From the NCBI RefSeq assembly GCF_057098645.1, contig NZ_CM169472.1: a stretch of DNA of 64,000 nt, one strand, 5' to 3'. Position 1 is the first letter of the stretch, and every line of letters starts with the position of its first letter. A program made the position numbers. Positions 45,401 to 51,400 of this stretch are shown here, one piece after another.

Positions 45401-48400
45401 TCCTGCGCACTTTGTCCTGGCTGCGTCTGAATGATGATCTGCGTCGGTGCCTCAATCCGTTGAACGGGCGGCACAGTGGCTGCGCGACTCACAATTGCTT
45501 CTCCACCTTTCGCGGGAAGTGCCAAAGGGTGCAACGGTGGAAGCTCTGCTGGCGCGGCAGCAACGCCCATCATTCCGGCAACAACGGCAGCCAGTGCAGC
45601 TGTATTTCTCCGGCTGGTCACATTTGCCGGGCCGTTAACAATTTCCGGCCCGTTTTCACCGACGATGCCAAACTGCCCGCGCGGGATATACCCGCCGCTG
45701 TCATACATCCCCGCAAAGCCATATCCCCATGACGGAAAACCACCCGATGGCATCATCACTTTACCGTCTGCATTCACCGTCGCAGGTTGCTGACGCGTCA
45801 CGCTTTCCGGCAGTTTTGCCTTTGCGGCCTCTTTACTGACAATGCCAAGTTTCTCCAGCAACCAGGAAACGCCGGATTTCAGGGAGTCCAGCGGATGCAT
45901 GACCATATTCAGCCCTTCCGCCAGTACCTCTCCGAATCGCCGCCCCATTGCCGCTGCACTCTGCAGTTCGGCAGAGGTCGACTTAACGGGCGTCAGCAGA
46001 TCAGTAAACCAGCCCCACAGCGCCTGTACTTTGTCGCCAATCCACTGGAACACGGGCTTAAGCGGTTCGAATGCTGCACTGACGGGACCTGCCGCCGCTT
46101 TGAATCCTTCCACCACGCCACCAAGAAATGCGGTGATGGGTTGCCAGTATTTCCAGACAACCAGCGCCACGCCCGCCAGTGCAGTAACCACAAGACCTAT
46201 CGGACTGAGTAGAGCACCTAACAGACCAGATACGGCATACAGGGCAACGCGCAGCATCGCCAGTGGACCAGATGCCAGTACTCGCAGCACCGTGCCTGCG
46301 GCGACCAGTCCACCGCGCAGTACCGCCAGAGGATTCATAAACATCACAGCAACAGCACGTAAACCGGATAATCCAGACCGCAAAAGTGCAACCGGCGCAC
46401 CTGCTACAGTTTTCAGGACATTTCCCGTCAGTGATGCCGTGCGGCGCAAAGACGACAACGGCGCAGTAAGTAAACCTGCGGCGTTGCCCGATGAAGCAAG
46501 CCCGCGTCGCAGCAGTGCAAGTGGTGCGCCAGCCAGCCAGGACAACGCGATGCTGGTTCGTGTTACTGCTGCCGTAACGGAAGGTAACGTTTTGATACCC
46601 AGCACAGAGAATCCCAGACGGATCACTGCCAGCGGCCCCAGCACTGCAGCCAGCGCCACCGCTAAGGTGCCGAGGCCTACGGTAACCGCAGCCACAACAG
46701 CCGCTACTTTCATCAGTGTGCCTGTCAGTTCCGGGTTAGCTTCCACCCAGCGGCGCAACGCCCCCGTGATGCTTTTCACCGTGTACAGAATATCCATCAG
46801 CGGCTGGCGCAGCGTTTCGCCCAGGCTGCTGAAGGTGTTCTGCGCTCCGGTTTTAACCAGCAACCACTGCGCAGAAAGTGAGTCCTTGTTAATGTCGGAT
46901 TCTTTCTGCATCGAACCGAGCGCATCATTGCCCGCTGTCAGTTTTAGCTGGCGCTGCAGTTCCGGCAGGTTGTTTGCCAGTTTCGCCGCATCATCGCCAA
47001 ACTCTTTACCAAACAACATGGTCATGGCAGACAGGCGCTTATCCTGCGGCAGTGCGTTCACCTTCTCCAGCACGCGCTGGATGGTTCCCATCGCATCCTT
47101 CGTCATCTGCTTTTCAATCACTTCAGGATTGAGTTTCAGCAGATTCATCCCTTCAAAAAAACTCTTGCTTTGCATGGTGGCAATGGACAATTCACGCACC
47201 ATCGCGTTTGCTGCACTGGCTGCAACCTCCGGCGCAGCGCCCAGTGTCAGGAAGGTGGAACCCAGCGCCGCCGCTTTACGATAATCCAGACGGTCAGCCA
47301 CACCGCCCAGACGTTGCATCACATCAATGATGTCTGCCCCTTTCGACATGGCGTTATCATCCAGATAATTCAGCGCATCACCGAGCTGTTCAATATTGCG
47401 GGTAGGGATTTTGTAGAGCTGGGCGATTTTCCCCAGACTTTCTGACAGTTCATCCGCTGGCAGCTCAAAGGCTGTTGCCGCCTTTGCTGCCGTACTGGCG
47501 AAGGCCAGCAGGTCACGTTTCTGATCTTCCCAGCTGTCGTCAGGGTTTGCGACGTTCATGCGCGCACCACCTTCAACCAGTGCAGCGAAGTCCACCGCAC
47601 CGTTTTCCATCGGCAACTGTTCGCTGGCAGCCTTGATGGCATCCTGCATTTCATAAAAACGTGCAGTGCGGTTGCCATTATCGTCACGCAGACCATTGAC
47701 CTGCTTTGCCACACCTTTCATGGCATCTTCCATGCTGGTATAGCTTTTTACTGCCGCCATCACTGGCGCACCCATTGCCAGCCCTGCAGCCGTGGTGGTG
47801 GCTCCGGCACCTGCAATACGATCACGCACCTCCAGCGAACGGGTATAACTGGCACGCGCTGCATTCATCCTGCGCTGAGCTTCCCCCAGTCGCTTCAGCC
47901 GCGCCTCCTGTTTCGAAAGTTCCTGGTTATAACGTGATGTTTCACGGGCTAAACGGGCAGTTGCTCCCGCATCGTCTTTCGCAGAAATTCCCGCCCGGTA
48001 CAGTTCAGCACGCACAAGCGCCGTCTGCTGCTGCAGCTTTTTCTGGCGTTCTTCCAGGCGCTGAATAGCCAGCCGTTGACGGCCCAGAGCAACAACCTGA
48101 CGTTGCGAAGGCGGCCCCATCGCTCCCAGTTCCTGACTGAGCAAATTTGCACGCTGGCGGGCATAGTTCAGCCTGTCGCCTAATTTCTGATTTTCTGCCT
48201 GCAGCTTTCGGAAGCTGTCCAGACTGCTCCCGGCCTGATCAAGCTGCTTTATTGCATCGCGGGATTTTTTGACAGCAGCAGCCAGTTCTCTTGAACTGGC
48301 CTGCGCAGATCGAAATGGGCGGGTGAGCTTGTCAACCGCATTAAGAATGACCTGCAGACGCAGGTTGTTATCACTCATCGTTGGCCCCGCTTCTCTGAAT

Positions 48401-51400
48401 CGCTTTATACCGCCATTCCAGCACTTCGGTCAGCGGCATAACGTCAGTAACGGATGGCGGCCAGTGAAAGATGGTGGCGATATCTGCCACCAGATCGTCA
48501 ACCGTCAGGCTGTCGGTAAACCGGCAAGCACCGACTTCTTCAACAAAAAAGTGACAACCTCAACCGACATGGCAGTGAGATCTGCCGGGTCCATCTCTGC
48601 GATTTCCTGTGCAGTCAGTGCCGGACTGGAGATGCGGGGGATCACGGTCATCATCGCGTTCACATCCATATCCATAATGGCCTGCAGGCGTGTGCCGCGC
48701 AGCGCACCGGACTGCGGTTTACGCAGCACAATTTCGGTAATTTCTGTTTTACCGCGCATGATGGGAGTATCCAGTTTAATAGTCTTTTCAGTCTGCTTAT
48801 CGCTCATTTTGCTGTCCTGTAAATTGGGTTCTGGCGCGGCATTCCGCGCCGTTCAGATACATCAGAGGCCGAGGGCGTTGCGGTGCGCTTCCATCAGGTC
48901 CACACCGTCCACAATTTCCACCATGTTGATAAGGTCCACTTCATAGAGCACCTCACCATTGATAGTCAGCTTCGCGTAGCTGTTGGTACTGGTCACTTTG
49001 GTGGTGTTGCTTTCGCCCGTCTTCCACTCGCCGGAATCCACTTCTTTGTGACGTCCACGCACCACAAGCTCCACGGCCTGCACTTCTCCGGTATCGTCAC
49101 GCTGGATAGAGCCGGTGAAGCGCAACTGGATGCCATCCACCGTGGCTTTGCCCATCTGTTTAAACAGCAGCAGTTCAGTACCACCAATGGAAAATTCTGT
49201 GTCCAGCGCACTGTCATCAAGCCCCAGATCCACATCCACTGCACCCGGCATTCCGCCGCCGCGATACTTCTCATATTTGCGGGTGAATTTCGGCAGCGTC
49301 AGCGACTCAACGATCCCCTGCCAGTTGTTCCCGTCATTAAACAGGTTCAGGTGTTTTAATTTGCGTGGTAAAGCCATGTTGTCCCCTTACGCGCTGACCT
49401 GGCTAGAGAAATTCACCAGGTACTGATCGGTGATGCGCTGACGCAGCATCAGGTTTTCAAGTGGCGGCACTGGCGTGTAGTCGTAGTCGATGGTGAGTTT
49501 TCCGGCTTTCAGCGTGTCTTTGTCGTTCACCGACTCATCCAGCCAGCAATCACCACCAATGAGATAGCCCTGACTGACCAGGCTGCGCATTTTGGCGCGG
49601 ATCCCCTCGATAATGTCGCGGGCCAGCGACGGGTTAAGCGGTTTATCCACCGCCCACATGTGTGCTTCTGCCATCGTGTCCATCAGCACCTGCGCCGTGC
49701 GGGTGTAGTTTTCGAAGGCAAAGAGCGGGTCATCACTCAGGCAGCGGGAACCCCAGAAGCGGAAACCGTCTTTACGCACAAGCGTGGTGACGTCGTTCTG
49801 GTTCAGCAGACCTGCATCGGTTGCCGGGTCCTGCAGATCCCAGAACACATCAGCAGAAATTCCGGTGACACCGTTCACGCCCACGTTGGACAGGCTTTTG
49901 TGCCATCCGGTCTGCTCGTCAATTTTGGCGCGCAGACCAAGCGCACGGGCGGTGGCATATGCCGTTGCTTCGGCATTCAGCACCGTGTCCCAGCCAGTAA
50001 AGTCAGGCCAGATCAGCATCCCTTCGCGCTGGCTGAAGTTTTCACGGTAAGTGATCGCCTCCTGTACCGTCTTGCAGCCATACGCTGACAGGTAAGCAAA
50101 TCCACGCAGGCTTTGCGCCACGCTCAGCAACTCAGTAGCTACCGCCTTGGTGTCGTGGCCTGGCACGCCGAGAATGCGCGGTTTAACGCCGAGCTGTGAC
50201 TGGGCAGATAACAGGGCTTTCATGCCTGTTTTTTTACCTTCAGCGGTCACTGCTCCGATGATATTGGTCGTGGTTTCTTCTTCCGTTTCACCCTGCGGCA
50301 CACGCACAACAACGGTCACGGGTTTTGCCTGGTCAGCGATGGCGTCCAGCGAACGGGCCAGCGTACCGGACTCACCCGCTTTACCGCTGGCAGTCAGCAC
50401 ATCAGTGATCAGCACGGGTTTATTAAGAGGAAACATTTTTGCATCGGCATCATCGCCCGTGCAGACCATACCCACGATGGCGGTGCTCACCGTGGTAATG
50501 GATCGGGTGCCTTCGTTGACTTCAACAACGCGCACTCCGTGGTGGTAATCCTGAGCCATAGTGGCGAACCTCCTGATTGGATTAGGCTTCGCCCTATGTT
50601 GAAGTGATTGTGCCTGACAAACAGCTAAGCGCAGTTGTGTCGTTATTCACACAAAATAACGGTATTTGTCCGCTTACAGGAAAAATCAAAATAATGCTGA
50701 CTCAGGGCGATTCATTGTTCTCATTCGCCGGAAATTTTCTATAAATGGTAGAAACGCCCACATCAAAAATCAGTGCAATACGCTGTCTTGATTCTCCGGC
50801 CTCGAGTAAACGTCCAATCTGTGCCCACTGTTCGGTAGTCAACTTAGGACGGCGTCCACCTACTCTGCCTTTAGCACGAGCTGCAGCCAGCCCTGCCCTG
50901 GTACGTTCAACTATCAGTTCGCGTTCCATTTCAGCCAGGGCACCCATGACATGAAAAAAGAAACGGCCCATTGGGGTACTGGTATCAATACTGTCAGTCA
51001 GACTTCTGAAATTCACGCCGCGCTGGCGCAACTCTTCTATCAGAGTAACAAGATGCCGCATACTGCGCCCCAACCTGTCCAGCTTCCAGACAACCAGTGT
51101 GTCACCTGCCGATAGTGTCCTGAGCAGTTTTTTAAGCCCCGGTCGGTCGGACTTCGTGCCGCTGATTTTATCCTCAAAAATCAGCTCACATCCTGCACAC
51201 TCCAGCGCGTTACGCTGCAATTCCGTATTCTGGTCATTTGTTGACACGCGGACATAGCCAATAAGCATGATGGATCCCCTGAATAAAAACCGGGGATGAT
51301 GCCAGTTAGCCGTAATCTCTGCATTTTCTTAAACGTTGGTTTGGGAGAAGCGGCAAAACGAAATGTGGGCAACGGGGAAAACCAAATCCCTGATATGTCT

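What the first reader, a model, noticed from the sequence alone, without database searches (positions are those of the whole stretch)
48393..48807. Conserved -1 frameshift site for tail chaperone E / E+E'
Near the 3' end of the E ORF the reverse strand reads GTT GTC ACT TTT TTG TTG, containing the T6G slippery heptamer used by P2 E/E+E' and analogous to lambda G/GT. A -1 shift would extend translation through the ~110 bp gap to just before T, which otherwise has no ORF.
Basis: partly seen in the sequence, partly recalled or inferred. Interest (0 to 1): 0.3.

Follow-up and report, generated by a model that had tools for sequence, protein, structure and literature searches.

The report
P2-type tail chaperone frameshift site
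This is the well-known programmed -1 ribosomal frameshift site by which P2/Fels-2-like prophages make two tail-assembly chaperones (E and the longer E+E') from one start codon. It is real and strongly conserved, but ordinary and already described.

Summary
On the minus strand, gene E (48807-48505, 100 codons) sits between the tail tube gene FII and the tape-measure gene T. Its codons 86-88 read ACT TTT TTG, which places the heptamer T_TTT_TTG (48550-48544) in the slippery X_XXY_YYZ phase. From the G at 48544 the -1 frame stays open for 57 codons, to a TGA at 48373-48371 that overlaps the ATG of T (48378-48376).

That -1 frame encodes the Pfam domain Phage_P2_GpE (E = 4e-19). The conceptual 145-aa fusion aligns without gaps, at 48% identity, to the annotated E+E' of the P2-like phage L-413C.

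In 99 of 100 related loci E' lies in the -1 frame relative to E. An in-phase slippery heptamer sits in the short overlap of the two frames in all 100. It is T_TTT_TTG in 92 loci and in 14 of 19 distinct lineages.

The heptamer alone is no rarer than chance (20 in the window, 19 expected). The case rests on context and homology.

Corrections to the finding:
- The feature ends at 48371, not 48393.
- The E-to-T gap is 126 nt, not about 110.
- The gap is not ORF-free. It holds the 39-codon "GpE family" ORF that annotation pipelines call separately.

Fels-2, 87% identical here, already carries the frameshift note. The identical sequence occurs in E. coli HS, and close copies in about 1,000 complete E. 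coli genomes. Verdict: supported, already known, low interest.

The parts
48862..49377 (-). FII tail tube gene (171 codons plus stop), the upstream neighbour that defines the context
   Evidence: PF04985 Phage_tube, E = 8.8e-60
48815..48818 (-). AGGA ribosome-binding site, 7 nt before the ATG shared by E and E+E'
   Evidence: Read directly from the sequence
48505..48807 (-). Gene E: the zero-frame tail assembly chaperone, 100 aa plus the TGA stop at 48507-48505
   Evidence: ORF list and translation. PF10109 Phage_TAC_7, E = 8.9e-19, residues 9-88. phrog_103 'tail protein', E = 2.8e-42.
48558..48561 (-). SD-like GAGG with 8 nt between it and the second base of the heptamer; a possible frameshift stimulator (inferred, unproven)
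   Evidence: 12 of 19 diverse relatives carry an SD-like motif 6-17 nt upstream, against a 15% background. The criteria are those of PMC4066793. The count is not corrected for shared ancestry or for the conserved E/K-V-V peptide.
48560..48562 (-). TGA stop in the -1 frame; the upstream limit of the zone where a -1 shift can produce E+E'
48544..48550 (-). Slippery heptamer T_TTT_TTG (last base of codon 86, then codons 87 and 88 of E); the site of the -1 shift
   Evidence: It is the only in-phase X_XXY_YYZ heptamer in the overlap zone. The T6 run is invariant in 68 unique sequences of the close relatives, while neighbouring third codon positions vary.
48371..48544 (-). E' extension: 57 codons in the -1 frame (GTT at 48544-48542 through GAG), plus the TGA stop at 48373-48371
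   Evidence: Translation. PF06528 Phage_P2_GpE, E = 4e-19. phrog_1756 matches residues 85-145 of the fusion, spanning the junction.
48371..48490 (-). 39-codon GTG ORF inside E', annotated on its own as 'GpE family phage tail protein' in public E. coli records
   Evidence: PGAP annotation in CP019275 and E. coli HS.
48512..48535 (-). Weak hairpin GUCGGU-N12-ACCGAC starting 8 nt 3' of the heptamer; not statistically supported
   Evidence: -13.5 kcal/mol, z = -1.39, and 21 of 200 shuffles fold as well. One compensatory variant and three disruptive variants among relatives.
45301..48378 (-). Gene T, the tape measure (1025 aa); its ATG at 48378-48376 overlaps the end of E' by 8 nt
   Evidence: PF10145, E = 2e-18. 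Sequence read.

Best explanation
This is the programmed -1 ribosomal frameshift site of the tail assembly chaperone gene of a Fels-2/P2-like (Peduoviridae) prophage of E. coli.

Ribosomes start at the ATG at 48807. Most of them read straight through and terminate at 48505, giving E (100 aa). A minority slip while tRNA-Phe (UUU, P site) and tRNA-Leu (UUG, A site) occupy T_TTT_TTG (48550-48544). Both tRNAs re-pair one base back on UUU UUU, and the next codon read is GUU (48544-48542). Translation then continues for 57 codons in the -1 frame to the TGA at 48373-48371, giving E+E' (145 aa, junction ...VVTFL|VEEVG...).

By analogy with P2 E/E+E' and lambda G/GT, both proteins are assembly chaperones. 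The shared E domain coats the tape-measure protein T. The E' domain, present in a small fixed proportion, recruits the tube protein FII so that it polymerises around T.

Shown here:
- the gene order;
- the phase of the heptamer;
- the open -1 frame and its homology to E';
- collinearity with annotated E+E' proteins;
- conservation of the arrangement in 99 of 100 relatives;
- a confident single-chain fold whose best solved matches are tail assembly chaperones.

Inferred, not shown: that the shift happens on the ribosome, its efficiency, and the protein partners.
For: - Pfam hits, in gene order, for FI sheath, FII tube, E (PF10109), the -1-frame E' (PF06528, 68 bits against a cut-off of 23), T, U and D.
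- The heptamer is in X_XXY_YYZ phase, and the -1 frame is open for 57 codons.
- The fusion aligns to L-413C E+E', annotated as '-1 frameshift', at 48% identity with no gaps and E = 1e-50.
- Fels-2 is 87% identical in DNA here. It has the same heptamer and an annotation note that E+E' forms by slippage.
- tblastn of the fusion finds 427 phage records, 387 of them covering at least 80% of the query. Every such record in the 60-row sample matches in two pieces, and in all loci fetched the two pieces lie in different frames.
- In 100 loci, E' is in the -1 frame in 99. The in-phase heptamer in the overlap is T_TTT_TTG in 92. The variants are T_TTT_TTT, T_TTT_TTA, G_GGA_AAG and A_AAT_TTT, all legitimate X_XXY_YYZ motifs.
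- The overlap zone is as short as 34 nt in P2, 186, PSP3 and YenM, yet it always contains the heptamer.
- The base before TTT TTG is always T although that codon encodes T, L, G, P, N or S in different phages. This points to selection at the nucleotide level.
- The T6 run is invariant in 68 unique sequences of the close relatives.
- Literature: the P2 -1 shift occurs at TTTTTTG and gives a 91-aa E and a 142-aa E+E' (PMC3091744). P2 E' lacks a ribosome-binding site and overlaps T (PMC3931495). The lambda G/GT mechanism is summarised in PMC5009743.
Against: - There are no expression data for this prophage. The frameshift itself, its rate and the two proteins are inferred.
- No significant downstream stimulatory structure was found (z = -0.06 to -1.39).
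- U_UUU_UUG is not among the motifs listed as most efficient in E. coli in PMC4066793. This fits a low-level shift but leaves the efficiency unknown.
- The heptamer alone is as frequent as chance predicts.
- A homopolymer run could also support RNA polymerase slippage.
- The primary P2 paper (Christie et al. 2002) could not be read here. The experimental basis is cited second-hand.
Confidence: 0.89

Rival explanations
1. E' is an independent small gene. A 39-aa protein would start at the GTG at 48490, as the automatic annotation implies, and no frameshift would be needed.
For: - A GTG-started ORF exists at 48490-48371.
- PGAP annotates it separately as 'GpE family phage tail protein' in E. coli HS and other records.
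- Most relatives have Met or Val at that aligned column.
- The Pfam GpE model begins at that residue.
Against: - No SD-like sequence precedes the GTG (upstream CGGTTGACGATCTG). P2 E' is reported to lack a ribosome-binding site (PMC3931495).
- The -1 frame stays open and conserved at the protein level upstream of the GTG, back to the heptamer. V1, G5, L13 and the DDL motif are shared with P2-like phages, and phrog_1756 matches residues 85-145 across the junction.
- In RSA1, Vibrio PE003 and Mannheimia that column is Ala, Tyr or Ile, so there is no start codon, yet E' is conserved.
- Independent initiation would not explain the conserved in-phase slippery heptamer.
Confidence: 0.04
2. E+E' arises by transcriptional slippage. 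RNA polymerase would add one extra U at the T6 run, producing a minority mRNA in which E and E' are in one frame. The ribosome would not shift.
For: - The site is a homopolymer run of 6 T, and of 7 in several relatives.
- Adding one T at the DNA level does fuse the frames, as in IMG/VR locus L004, which has T8 where its relative has T7.
- Nothing computed here separates RNA-level from ribosome-level slippage in this particular phage.
Against: - At the equivalent position Mannheimia phage 1152AP has G_GGA_AAG and E. coli phage 503458 has A_AAT_TTT. These motifs suit tandem tRNA re-pairing but are poor substrates for polymerase slippage.
- The strict conservation of phase (X_XXY_YYZ) is a constraint on the ribosome, not on the polymerase.
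- From established knowledge, efficient bacterial transcriptional slippage usually needs runs of about 9 or more A or T.
- The P2 case is described in the literature as translational.
Confidence: 0.06
3. The heptamer and the open -1 frame are coincidental and have no function.
For: TTTTTTG occurs 20 times in the window, as expected by chance. 7 of the 532 X_XXY_YYZ heptamers pass a crude geometric filter.
Against: - The -1 frame matches a curated protein family at E = 4e-19.
- The arrangement and the heptamer are conserved across 19 lineages down to about 33% protein identity.
- The T run is invariant while flanking synonymous sites vary.
Confidence: 0.01

Closest known systems
Bacteriophage P2 E / E+E' (FETUD tail operon; Christie et al. 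2002), seen here through the nearly identical Yersinia phage L-413C annotation
   Same: - Same gene order: FI-FII-E(E')-T-U-D.
- Same heptamer T_TTT_TTG in the same phase at the same aligned motif (G/T-F-L).
- Same 57-codon -1 extension that overlaps the T start.
- Homologous E and E' domains: 48% identity over the whole fusion with no gaps.
   Different: - E is 100 aa here against 91 aa, and the fusion is 145 aa against 142 aa.
- The zero-frame tail after the heptamer is 12 codons against 6.
- The overlap zone is 52 nt against 34 nt.
- The E' column corresponding to the 'internal start' is GTG here and ATG in P2-like phages.
- The tape measure is 1025 aa against 815 aa.
Salmonella phage Fels-2 STM2699/STM2697.1 (Felsduovirus) and E. 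coli prophages such as that of strain HS
   Same: - Fels-2 is 87% identical in DNA over 601 nt and 91% identical in the fusion protein, with an identical heptamer and flanks. Its annotation note says E+E' forms by slippage.
- The E. coli HS prophage is 100% identical over the 601 nt.
   Different: - None at the frameshift site.
- The window's copy carries a DNA invertase and an invertible tail-fibre segment upstream of FI. The HS copy lacks these.
Bacteriophage lambda G / GT tail assembly chaperones (Levin et al. 1993; Xu et al. 2004, 2013, 2014)
   Same: - Two overlapping reading frames lie between the major tail/tube gene and the tape-measure gene, joined by a low-level -1 shift at an X_XXY_YYZ heptamer.
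- The role is chaperoning the tape measure and recruiting tube subunits (PMC5009743).
- The best solved-structure matches of the E+E' model are tail assembly chaperones, including that of the lambdoid phage HK97, 2ob9.
   Different: - No detectable sequence similarity to lambda G or GT. They were not in any profile hit.
- Lambda uses G_GGA_AAG.
- Lambda has a non-contractile tail.
E. coli dnaX gamma/tau -1 frameshift
   Same: A -1 shift at an X_XXY_YYZ heptamer in E. coli, with a possible upstream SD-like stimulator. [quoted passage not shown]
   Different: - dnaX uses A_AAA_AAG plus a strong 3' stem-loop and shifts at about 50% (established knowledge).
- Here no significant 3' structure was found.
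- Here the shifted product is longer, not shorter.

Membership tests
P2-type E/E+E' frameshifted tail assembly chaperone (Peduoviridae) | The gene lies between the tail tube gene (FII) and the tape-measure gene (T) in an FI-FII-E-T-U-D operon | tested here: met
   Pfam hits in that order on the minus strand: sheath, tube, TAC_7, tape measure, GpU, GPD
P2-type E/E+E' frameshifted tail assembly chaperone (Peduoviridae) | The zero-frame product is homologous to P2 gpE | tested here: met
   PF10109, E = 8.9e-19. phrog_103, E = 2.8e-42. 43% identity to L-413C E.
P2-type E/E+E' frameshifted tail assembly chaperone (Peduoviridae) | The -1 frame downstream encodes the E' (GpE) domain | tested here: met
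   PF06528, 68.2 bits against a cut-off of 23, E = 4e-19. 56% identity to L-413C E'.
P2-type E/E+E' frameshifted tail assembly chaperone (Peduoviridae) | A slippery heptamer (T_TTT_TTG) lies in X_XXY_YYZ phase inside the overlap of the two frames | tested here: met
   48550-48544 is the only in-phase heptamer in the 52-nt overlap. The same motif and phase occur in L-413C, 186, PSP3 and Fels-2.
P2-type E/E+E' frameshifted tail assembly chaperone (Peduoviridae) | E' overlaps the start of T and has no ribosome-binding site of its own | tested here: met
   The TGA at 48373-48371 overlaps the ATG at 48378-48376. No SD-like motif precedes the GTG at 48490 (sequence read). The feature is stated for P2 in PMC3931495.
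P2-type E/E+E' frameshifted tail assembly chaperone (Peduoviridae) | Two proteins, E and E+E', are actually produced from one start, and both are needed for tail assembly | not testable with these tools
   Needs proteomics and genetics on the induced prophage
Tail assembly chaperones with a conserved frameshift (lambda G/GT class, Xu et al. 2004) | Two overlapping ORFs immediately upstream of the tape-measure gene, joined by a programmed frameshift with the long form in the minority | tested here: met
   The arrangement is shown. The minority status of the long form is inferred only.
Tail assembly chaperones with a conserved frameshift (lambda G/GT class, Xu et al. 2004) | The tail assembly chaperone fold | tested here: inconclusive
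Tail assembly chaperones with a conserved frameshift (lambda G/GT class, Xu et al. 2004) | The short domain binds the tape measure, and the extension binds the tube or major tail protein | not testable with these tools
   Known for lambda (PMC5009743). Not tested for this protein.

The most novel reading that the evidence does not exclude
The P2-type site may not be stimulator-free, as the literature assumes. An SD-like element (GAGG or AGGTG, with 6-8 nt between it and the second base of the heptamer) is kept in all enteric lineages examined and in Burkholderia KS5 and Ralstonia RSA1. The Glu or Lys codon that supplies it is always GAG or AAG, never GAA or AAA, while the adjacent synonymous sites vary freely. 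It could pair with the anti-SD of the elongating ribosome and set the E:E+E' ratio. The alternative is that this pattern is only a by-product of the conserved E/K-V-V peptide and of shared ancestry.
Probability: 0.2. Interest if true: 0.2.

Novelty: already known. Interest (0 to 1): 0.08.

Why it matters
The biology is textbook. The fixed E:E+E' ratio produced by the frameshift is needed to build a tail of the correct length. The practical value is for annotation. In about 1,000 complete E. coli genomes the same site is annotated as two separate genes ('phage tail assembly protein' plus a 39-aa 'GpE family phage tail protein') with no frameshift join. As a result, the true 145-aa product is missing from protein databases. 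Recognising the site also marks the window as carrying a Fels-2/P2-like prophage with an apparently intact tail module.

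Tried and rejected
- Enrichment of TTTTTTG in the window: none, 20 against 19 expected, so the motif count is not evidence.
- A geometric filter over all 532 X_XXY_YYZ heptamers: 7 pass, at least one of them at an ordinary overlapping gene junction. It is not decisive on its own.
- A downstream stimulatory RNA structure: folds of 44, 60 and 100 nt 3' of the heptamer give z = -1.39, -0.06 and -1.15, and the P2-like, 186 and KS5 equivalents give z = +0.68, +0.02 and -0.76. A local GUCGGU/ACCGAC hairpin has one compensatory variant but three disruptive variants among relatives. It is rejected as unsupported.
- Sequence search of the fusion against PDB chains: no hit at E <= 1.
- Promoter and terminator scan of 48200-49500: nothing relevant.
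- The primary P2 paper (Christie et al. 2002) could not be retrieved by DOI or by PMC id, so secondary sources were used.
- The search for related loci returned mostly close relatives at 86-96% identity. Diversity was obtained instead from 16 further phage records of other genera or lineages, added to Fels-2 and L-413C.

Full report
**1. What is in the sequence**

On the minus strand the window carries a contractile-tail gene block:
- FI sheath, 50559-49387
- FII tube, 49377-48862 (PF04985, E = 8.8e-60)
- a 100-codon ORF, 48807-48505
- a 1025-codon tape-measure gene, 48378-45301 (PF10145)
- U, 45304-44819 (PF06995)
- D, 44822-43722 (PF05954)

The 100-codon ORF matches Pfam PF10109, 'Phage tail assembly chaperone proteins, E, or 41 or 14' (E = 8.9e-19). 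An AGGA lies 7 nt before its ATG.

The heptamer T_TTT_TTG therefore lies at 48550-48544 in the X_XXY_YYZ phase that tandem tRNA slippage requires.

**2. The -1 frame**

Translation from the G at 48544 gives 57 sense codons and then a TGA at 48373-48371. This stop overlaps the ATG of the tape-measure gene (48378-48376) in the string gATGAGTGA.

Upstream, the -1 frame is closed by a TGA at 48562-48560, 9 nt before the heptamer. The zero frame ends at 48507-48505. A productive shift must therefore occur within 52 nt, and the only in-phase slippery heptamer in that zone is this one.

Small corrections:
- The feature ends at 48371, not 48393.
- The gap between E and T is 126 nt.
- The gap is not ORF-free. 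Its distal part is a 39-codon GTG ORF (48490-48371) in the same -1 frame.

**3. Is it more than chance?**

The heptamer alone is not. It occurs 20 times in the window against 19.0 +/- 4.4 in shuffles. A crude geometric filter required a long upstream ORF, a nearby zero-frame stop and a -1 extension of at least 50 codons. It passes 7 of 532 heptamers, at least one of them at an ordinary overlapping gene junction.

The decisive evidence is homology:
- The 57-residue -1 extension matches Pfam PF06528 'Phage P2 GpE' at 68 bits against a cut-off of 23 (E = 4e-19).
- In PHROGs, one family (phrog_1756) matches residues 85-145 of the conceptual fusion, that is, across the junction.
- The 145-aa fusion (88 + 57 residues) aligns to the E+E' protein of Yersinia phage L-413C at 48% identity over 139 residues, with no gap at the junction (E = 1e-50). 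L-413C is a P2-like phage, and its record annotates this CDS as a two-piece join with a '-1 frameshift'.

**4. Conservation**

A tblastn search of the fusion against 50,697 phage records found 427 records, 387 of which cover at least 80% of the query. Every such record in the 60-row sample matches in two pieces, and in all loci fetched the two pieces lie in different frames.

I collected 100 loci: the window, 80 IMG/VR relatives, one E. coli record and 18 phage records. Together with the window, those 18 make 19 lineages, nearly all in different Peduoviridae genera.
- E' is in the -1 frame relative to E in 99 of the 100.
- The in-phase heptamer in the overlap is T_TTT_TTG in 92, T_TTT_TTT in 4, T_TTT_TTA in 2, G_GGA_AAG in 1 (Mannheimia) and A_AAT_TTT in 1 (E. 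coli phage 503458).
- Among the 19 lineages, 14 have T_TTT_TTG, including P2-like, 186, PSP3, Burkholderia KS5 and KL3, Ralstonia RSA1, a Shewanella phage and an Aeromonas phage.
- The overlap zone is as short as 34 nt in P2-like, 186, PSP3 and YenM phages, yet it always contains the heptamer.
- The base preceding TTT TTG is always T, although that codon encodes Thr, Leu, Gly, Pro, Asn or Ser in different phages. This is a nucleotide-level constraint.
- Among 68 unique sequences of the close relatives the T6 run never varies, while neighbouring third codon positions do.

**5. Mechanism**

The best-supported model is a programmed -1 ribosomal frameshift:
- tRNA-Phe on UUU and tRNA-Leu on UUG slip back one base. 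GUU is read next.
- The products are E (100 aa) and, less often, E+E' (145 aa).

The role is inferred from P2 and lambda. E/G coats the tape measure. The frameshift extension recruits tube subunits. Neither protein ends up in the virion in lambda (PMC5009743).

**6. Stimulators**

No significant 3' structure was found (z = -0.06 to -1.39 for the window, and no better for P2-like, 186 or KS5). This agrees with the statement that P2 and BCC phages lack one (PMC3091744).

[quoted passage not shown] By the criteria of PMC4066793, 12 of the 19 lineages have an SD-like motif 6-17 nt upstream, against a 15% background. This count ignores shared ancestry and the conserved E/K-V-V peptide, so I keep it as a lead, not a finding.

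PMC4066793 does not list U_UUU_UUG among the most efficient motifs in E. coli. That fits a low-level shift.

**7. Rivals**

- Independent initiation of a 39-aa GpE at the GTG at 48490 is what the automatic annotation implies. Four points argue against it. There is no SD before the GTG. The -1 frame is conserved back to the heptamer. Relatives have Ala, Tyr or Ile at that column. The conserved in-phase heptamer would be left unexplained.
- Transcriptional slippage on the T run cannot be excluded by computation. It is disfavoured by the strict phase conservation and by the non-homopolymeric G_GGA_AAG and A_AAT_TTT at the same place in two lineages.
- Chance is excluded.

**8. Comparison with what is known, and novelty**

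All the sequence-level defining features of the P2 E/E+E' system were tested and met. Only the production of the two proteins is untestable here.
- The 601-nt region is 100% identical in E. coli HS and other strains. It is present in 998 of 5,426 complete E. coli genomes, mostly at 95-99% identity.
- The frameshift in P2 (TTTTTTG; E 91 aa, E+E' 142 aa) and its conservation among P2-like phages are published (PMC3091744; PMC3931495).

The finding is therefore correct and already known. Its main residual value is annotation, because PGAP splits the product into two CDS with no join.

**9. Verdict**

Novelty: already known. Interest: 0.08.

Noticed in passing
window 50702-54330 (invertase 50702-51268, minus strand; inverted repeat arms 51324-51350 and 53268-53294): This looks like a Gin/Cin/Hin-type invertible tail-fibre segment. 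The elements are:
- a DNA invertase ORF (phrog_125, E = 1e-100);
- a 27-nt imperfect inverted repeat resembling cix/gix crossover sites, one arm of which lies inside the tail-fibre gene 54330-52810;
- an alternative fibre C-terminus plus assembly genes in the opposite orientation (51296-51790 and 51793-52236 on the plus strand, against 52813-52208 on the minus strand).
The otherwise identical E. coli HS prophage lacks the invertase.
   Followed up: partly
L004 (IMGVR_UViG_2734481921_000002), locus positions about 1742-1750: This relative has a run of 8 T where its nearest relative, Klebsiella phage ST11-VIM1phi8.4 (L098), has 7. E and E' are therefore fused in one frame and no separate short E can be made. 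It is either a homopolymer sequencing error or a genuine fused, probably defective, variant.
   Followed up: partly
window 48558-48561 and the equivalent position in L001, L002, L084, L085, L087, L088, L097, L098: [quoted passage not shown] The Glu or Lys codon providing it is always G-ending, while the flanking Val codons vary at the third position. Overall, 12 of 19 lineages have an SD-like motif 6-17 nt upstream, against a 15% background. This is not corrected for phylogeny or for protein constraint.
   Followed up: partly
L092 (Mannheimia phage 1152AP) positions 994-1000; L093 (Escherichia phage 503458) positions 955-961: Two P2-like lineages have replaced the T-run. Mannheimia uses G_GGA_AAG, the same heptamer as lambda G/GT. 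Phage 503458 uses A_AAT_TTT at the aligned position of the T-run, while the Mannheimia motif lies further downstream, after an acidic insertion.
   Followed up: partly
E. coli HS NC_009800.1 942804-943240 (L100 6094-6530), and about 1,000 other complete E. coli genomes: RefSeq/PGAP annotates E as 'phage tail assembly protein' and the last 39 codons of E' as a separate GTG-started 'GpE family phage tail protein', with no ribosomal-slippage join. The 145-aa product is therefore absent from the annotation.
   Followed up: yes
window 48833-48850 (minus strand), between the FII stop and the E start: A GC-rich hairpin, GGCGCGG-AAT-GCCGCGCC, with no T tract after it. It sits at the position where phage 186 has an annotated partial terminator tI, between its tube gene and its E homologue. 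The simple terminator scan did not flag it.
   Followed up: no
window 45301-48378: The tape-measure gene encodes 1025 aa, against 935 aa in Fels-2 and 815 aa in the P2-like phage L-413C (sizes taken from the annotated coordinates). This would predict a proportionally longer tail.
   Followed up: no
RefSeq phage records NC_004745, NC_015265, NC_001317, NC_021343, NC_049429, NC_049341, NC_015266 (loci L002, L084, L087, L089, L090, L093, L099): In these curated records the product name of the FII tail tube gene is 'head closure', although the accompanying notes, where present, say tail tube. This looks like a systematic mislabel.
   Followed up: no
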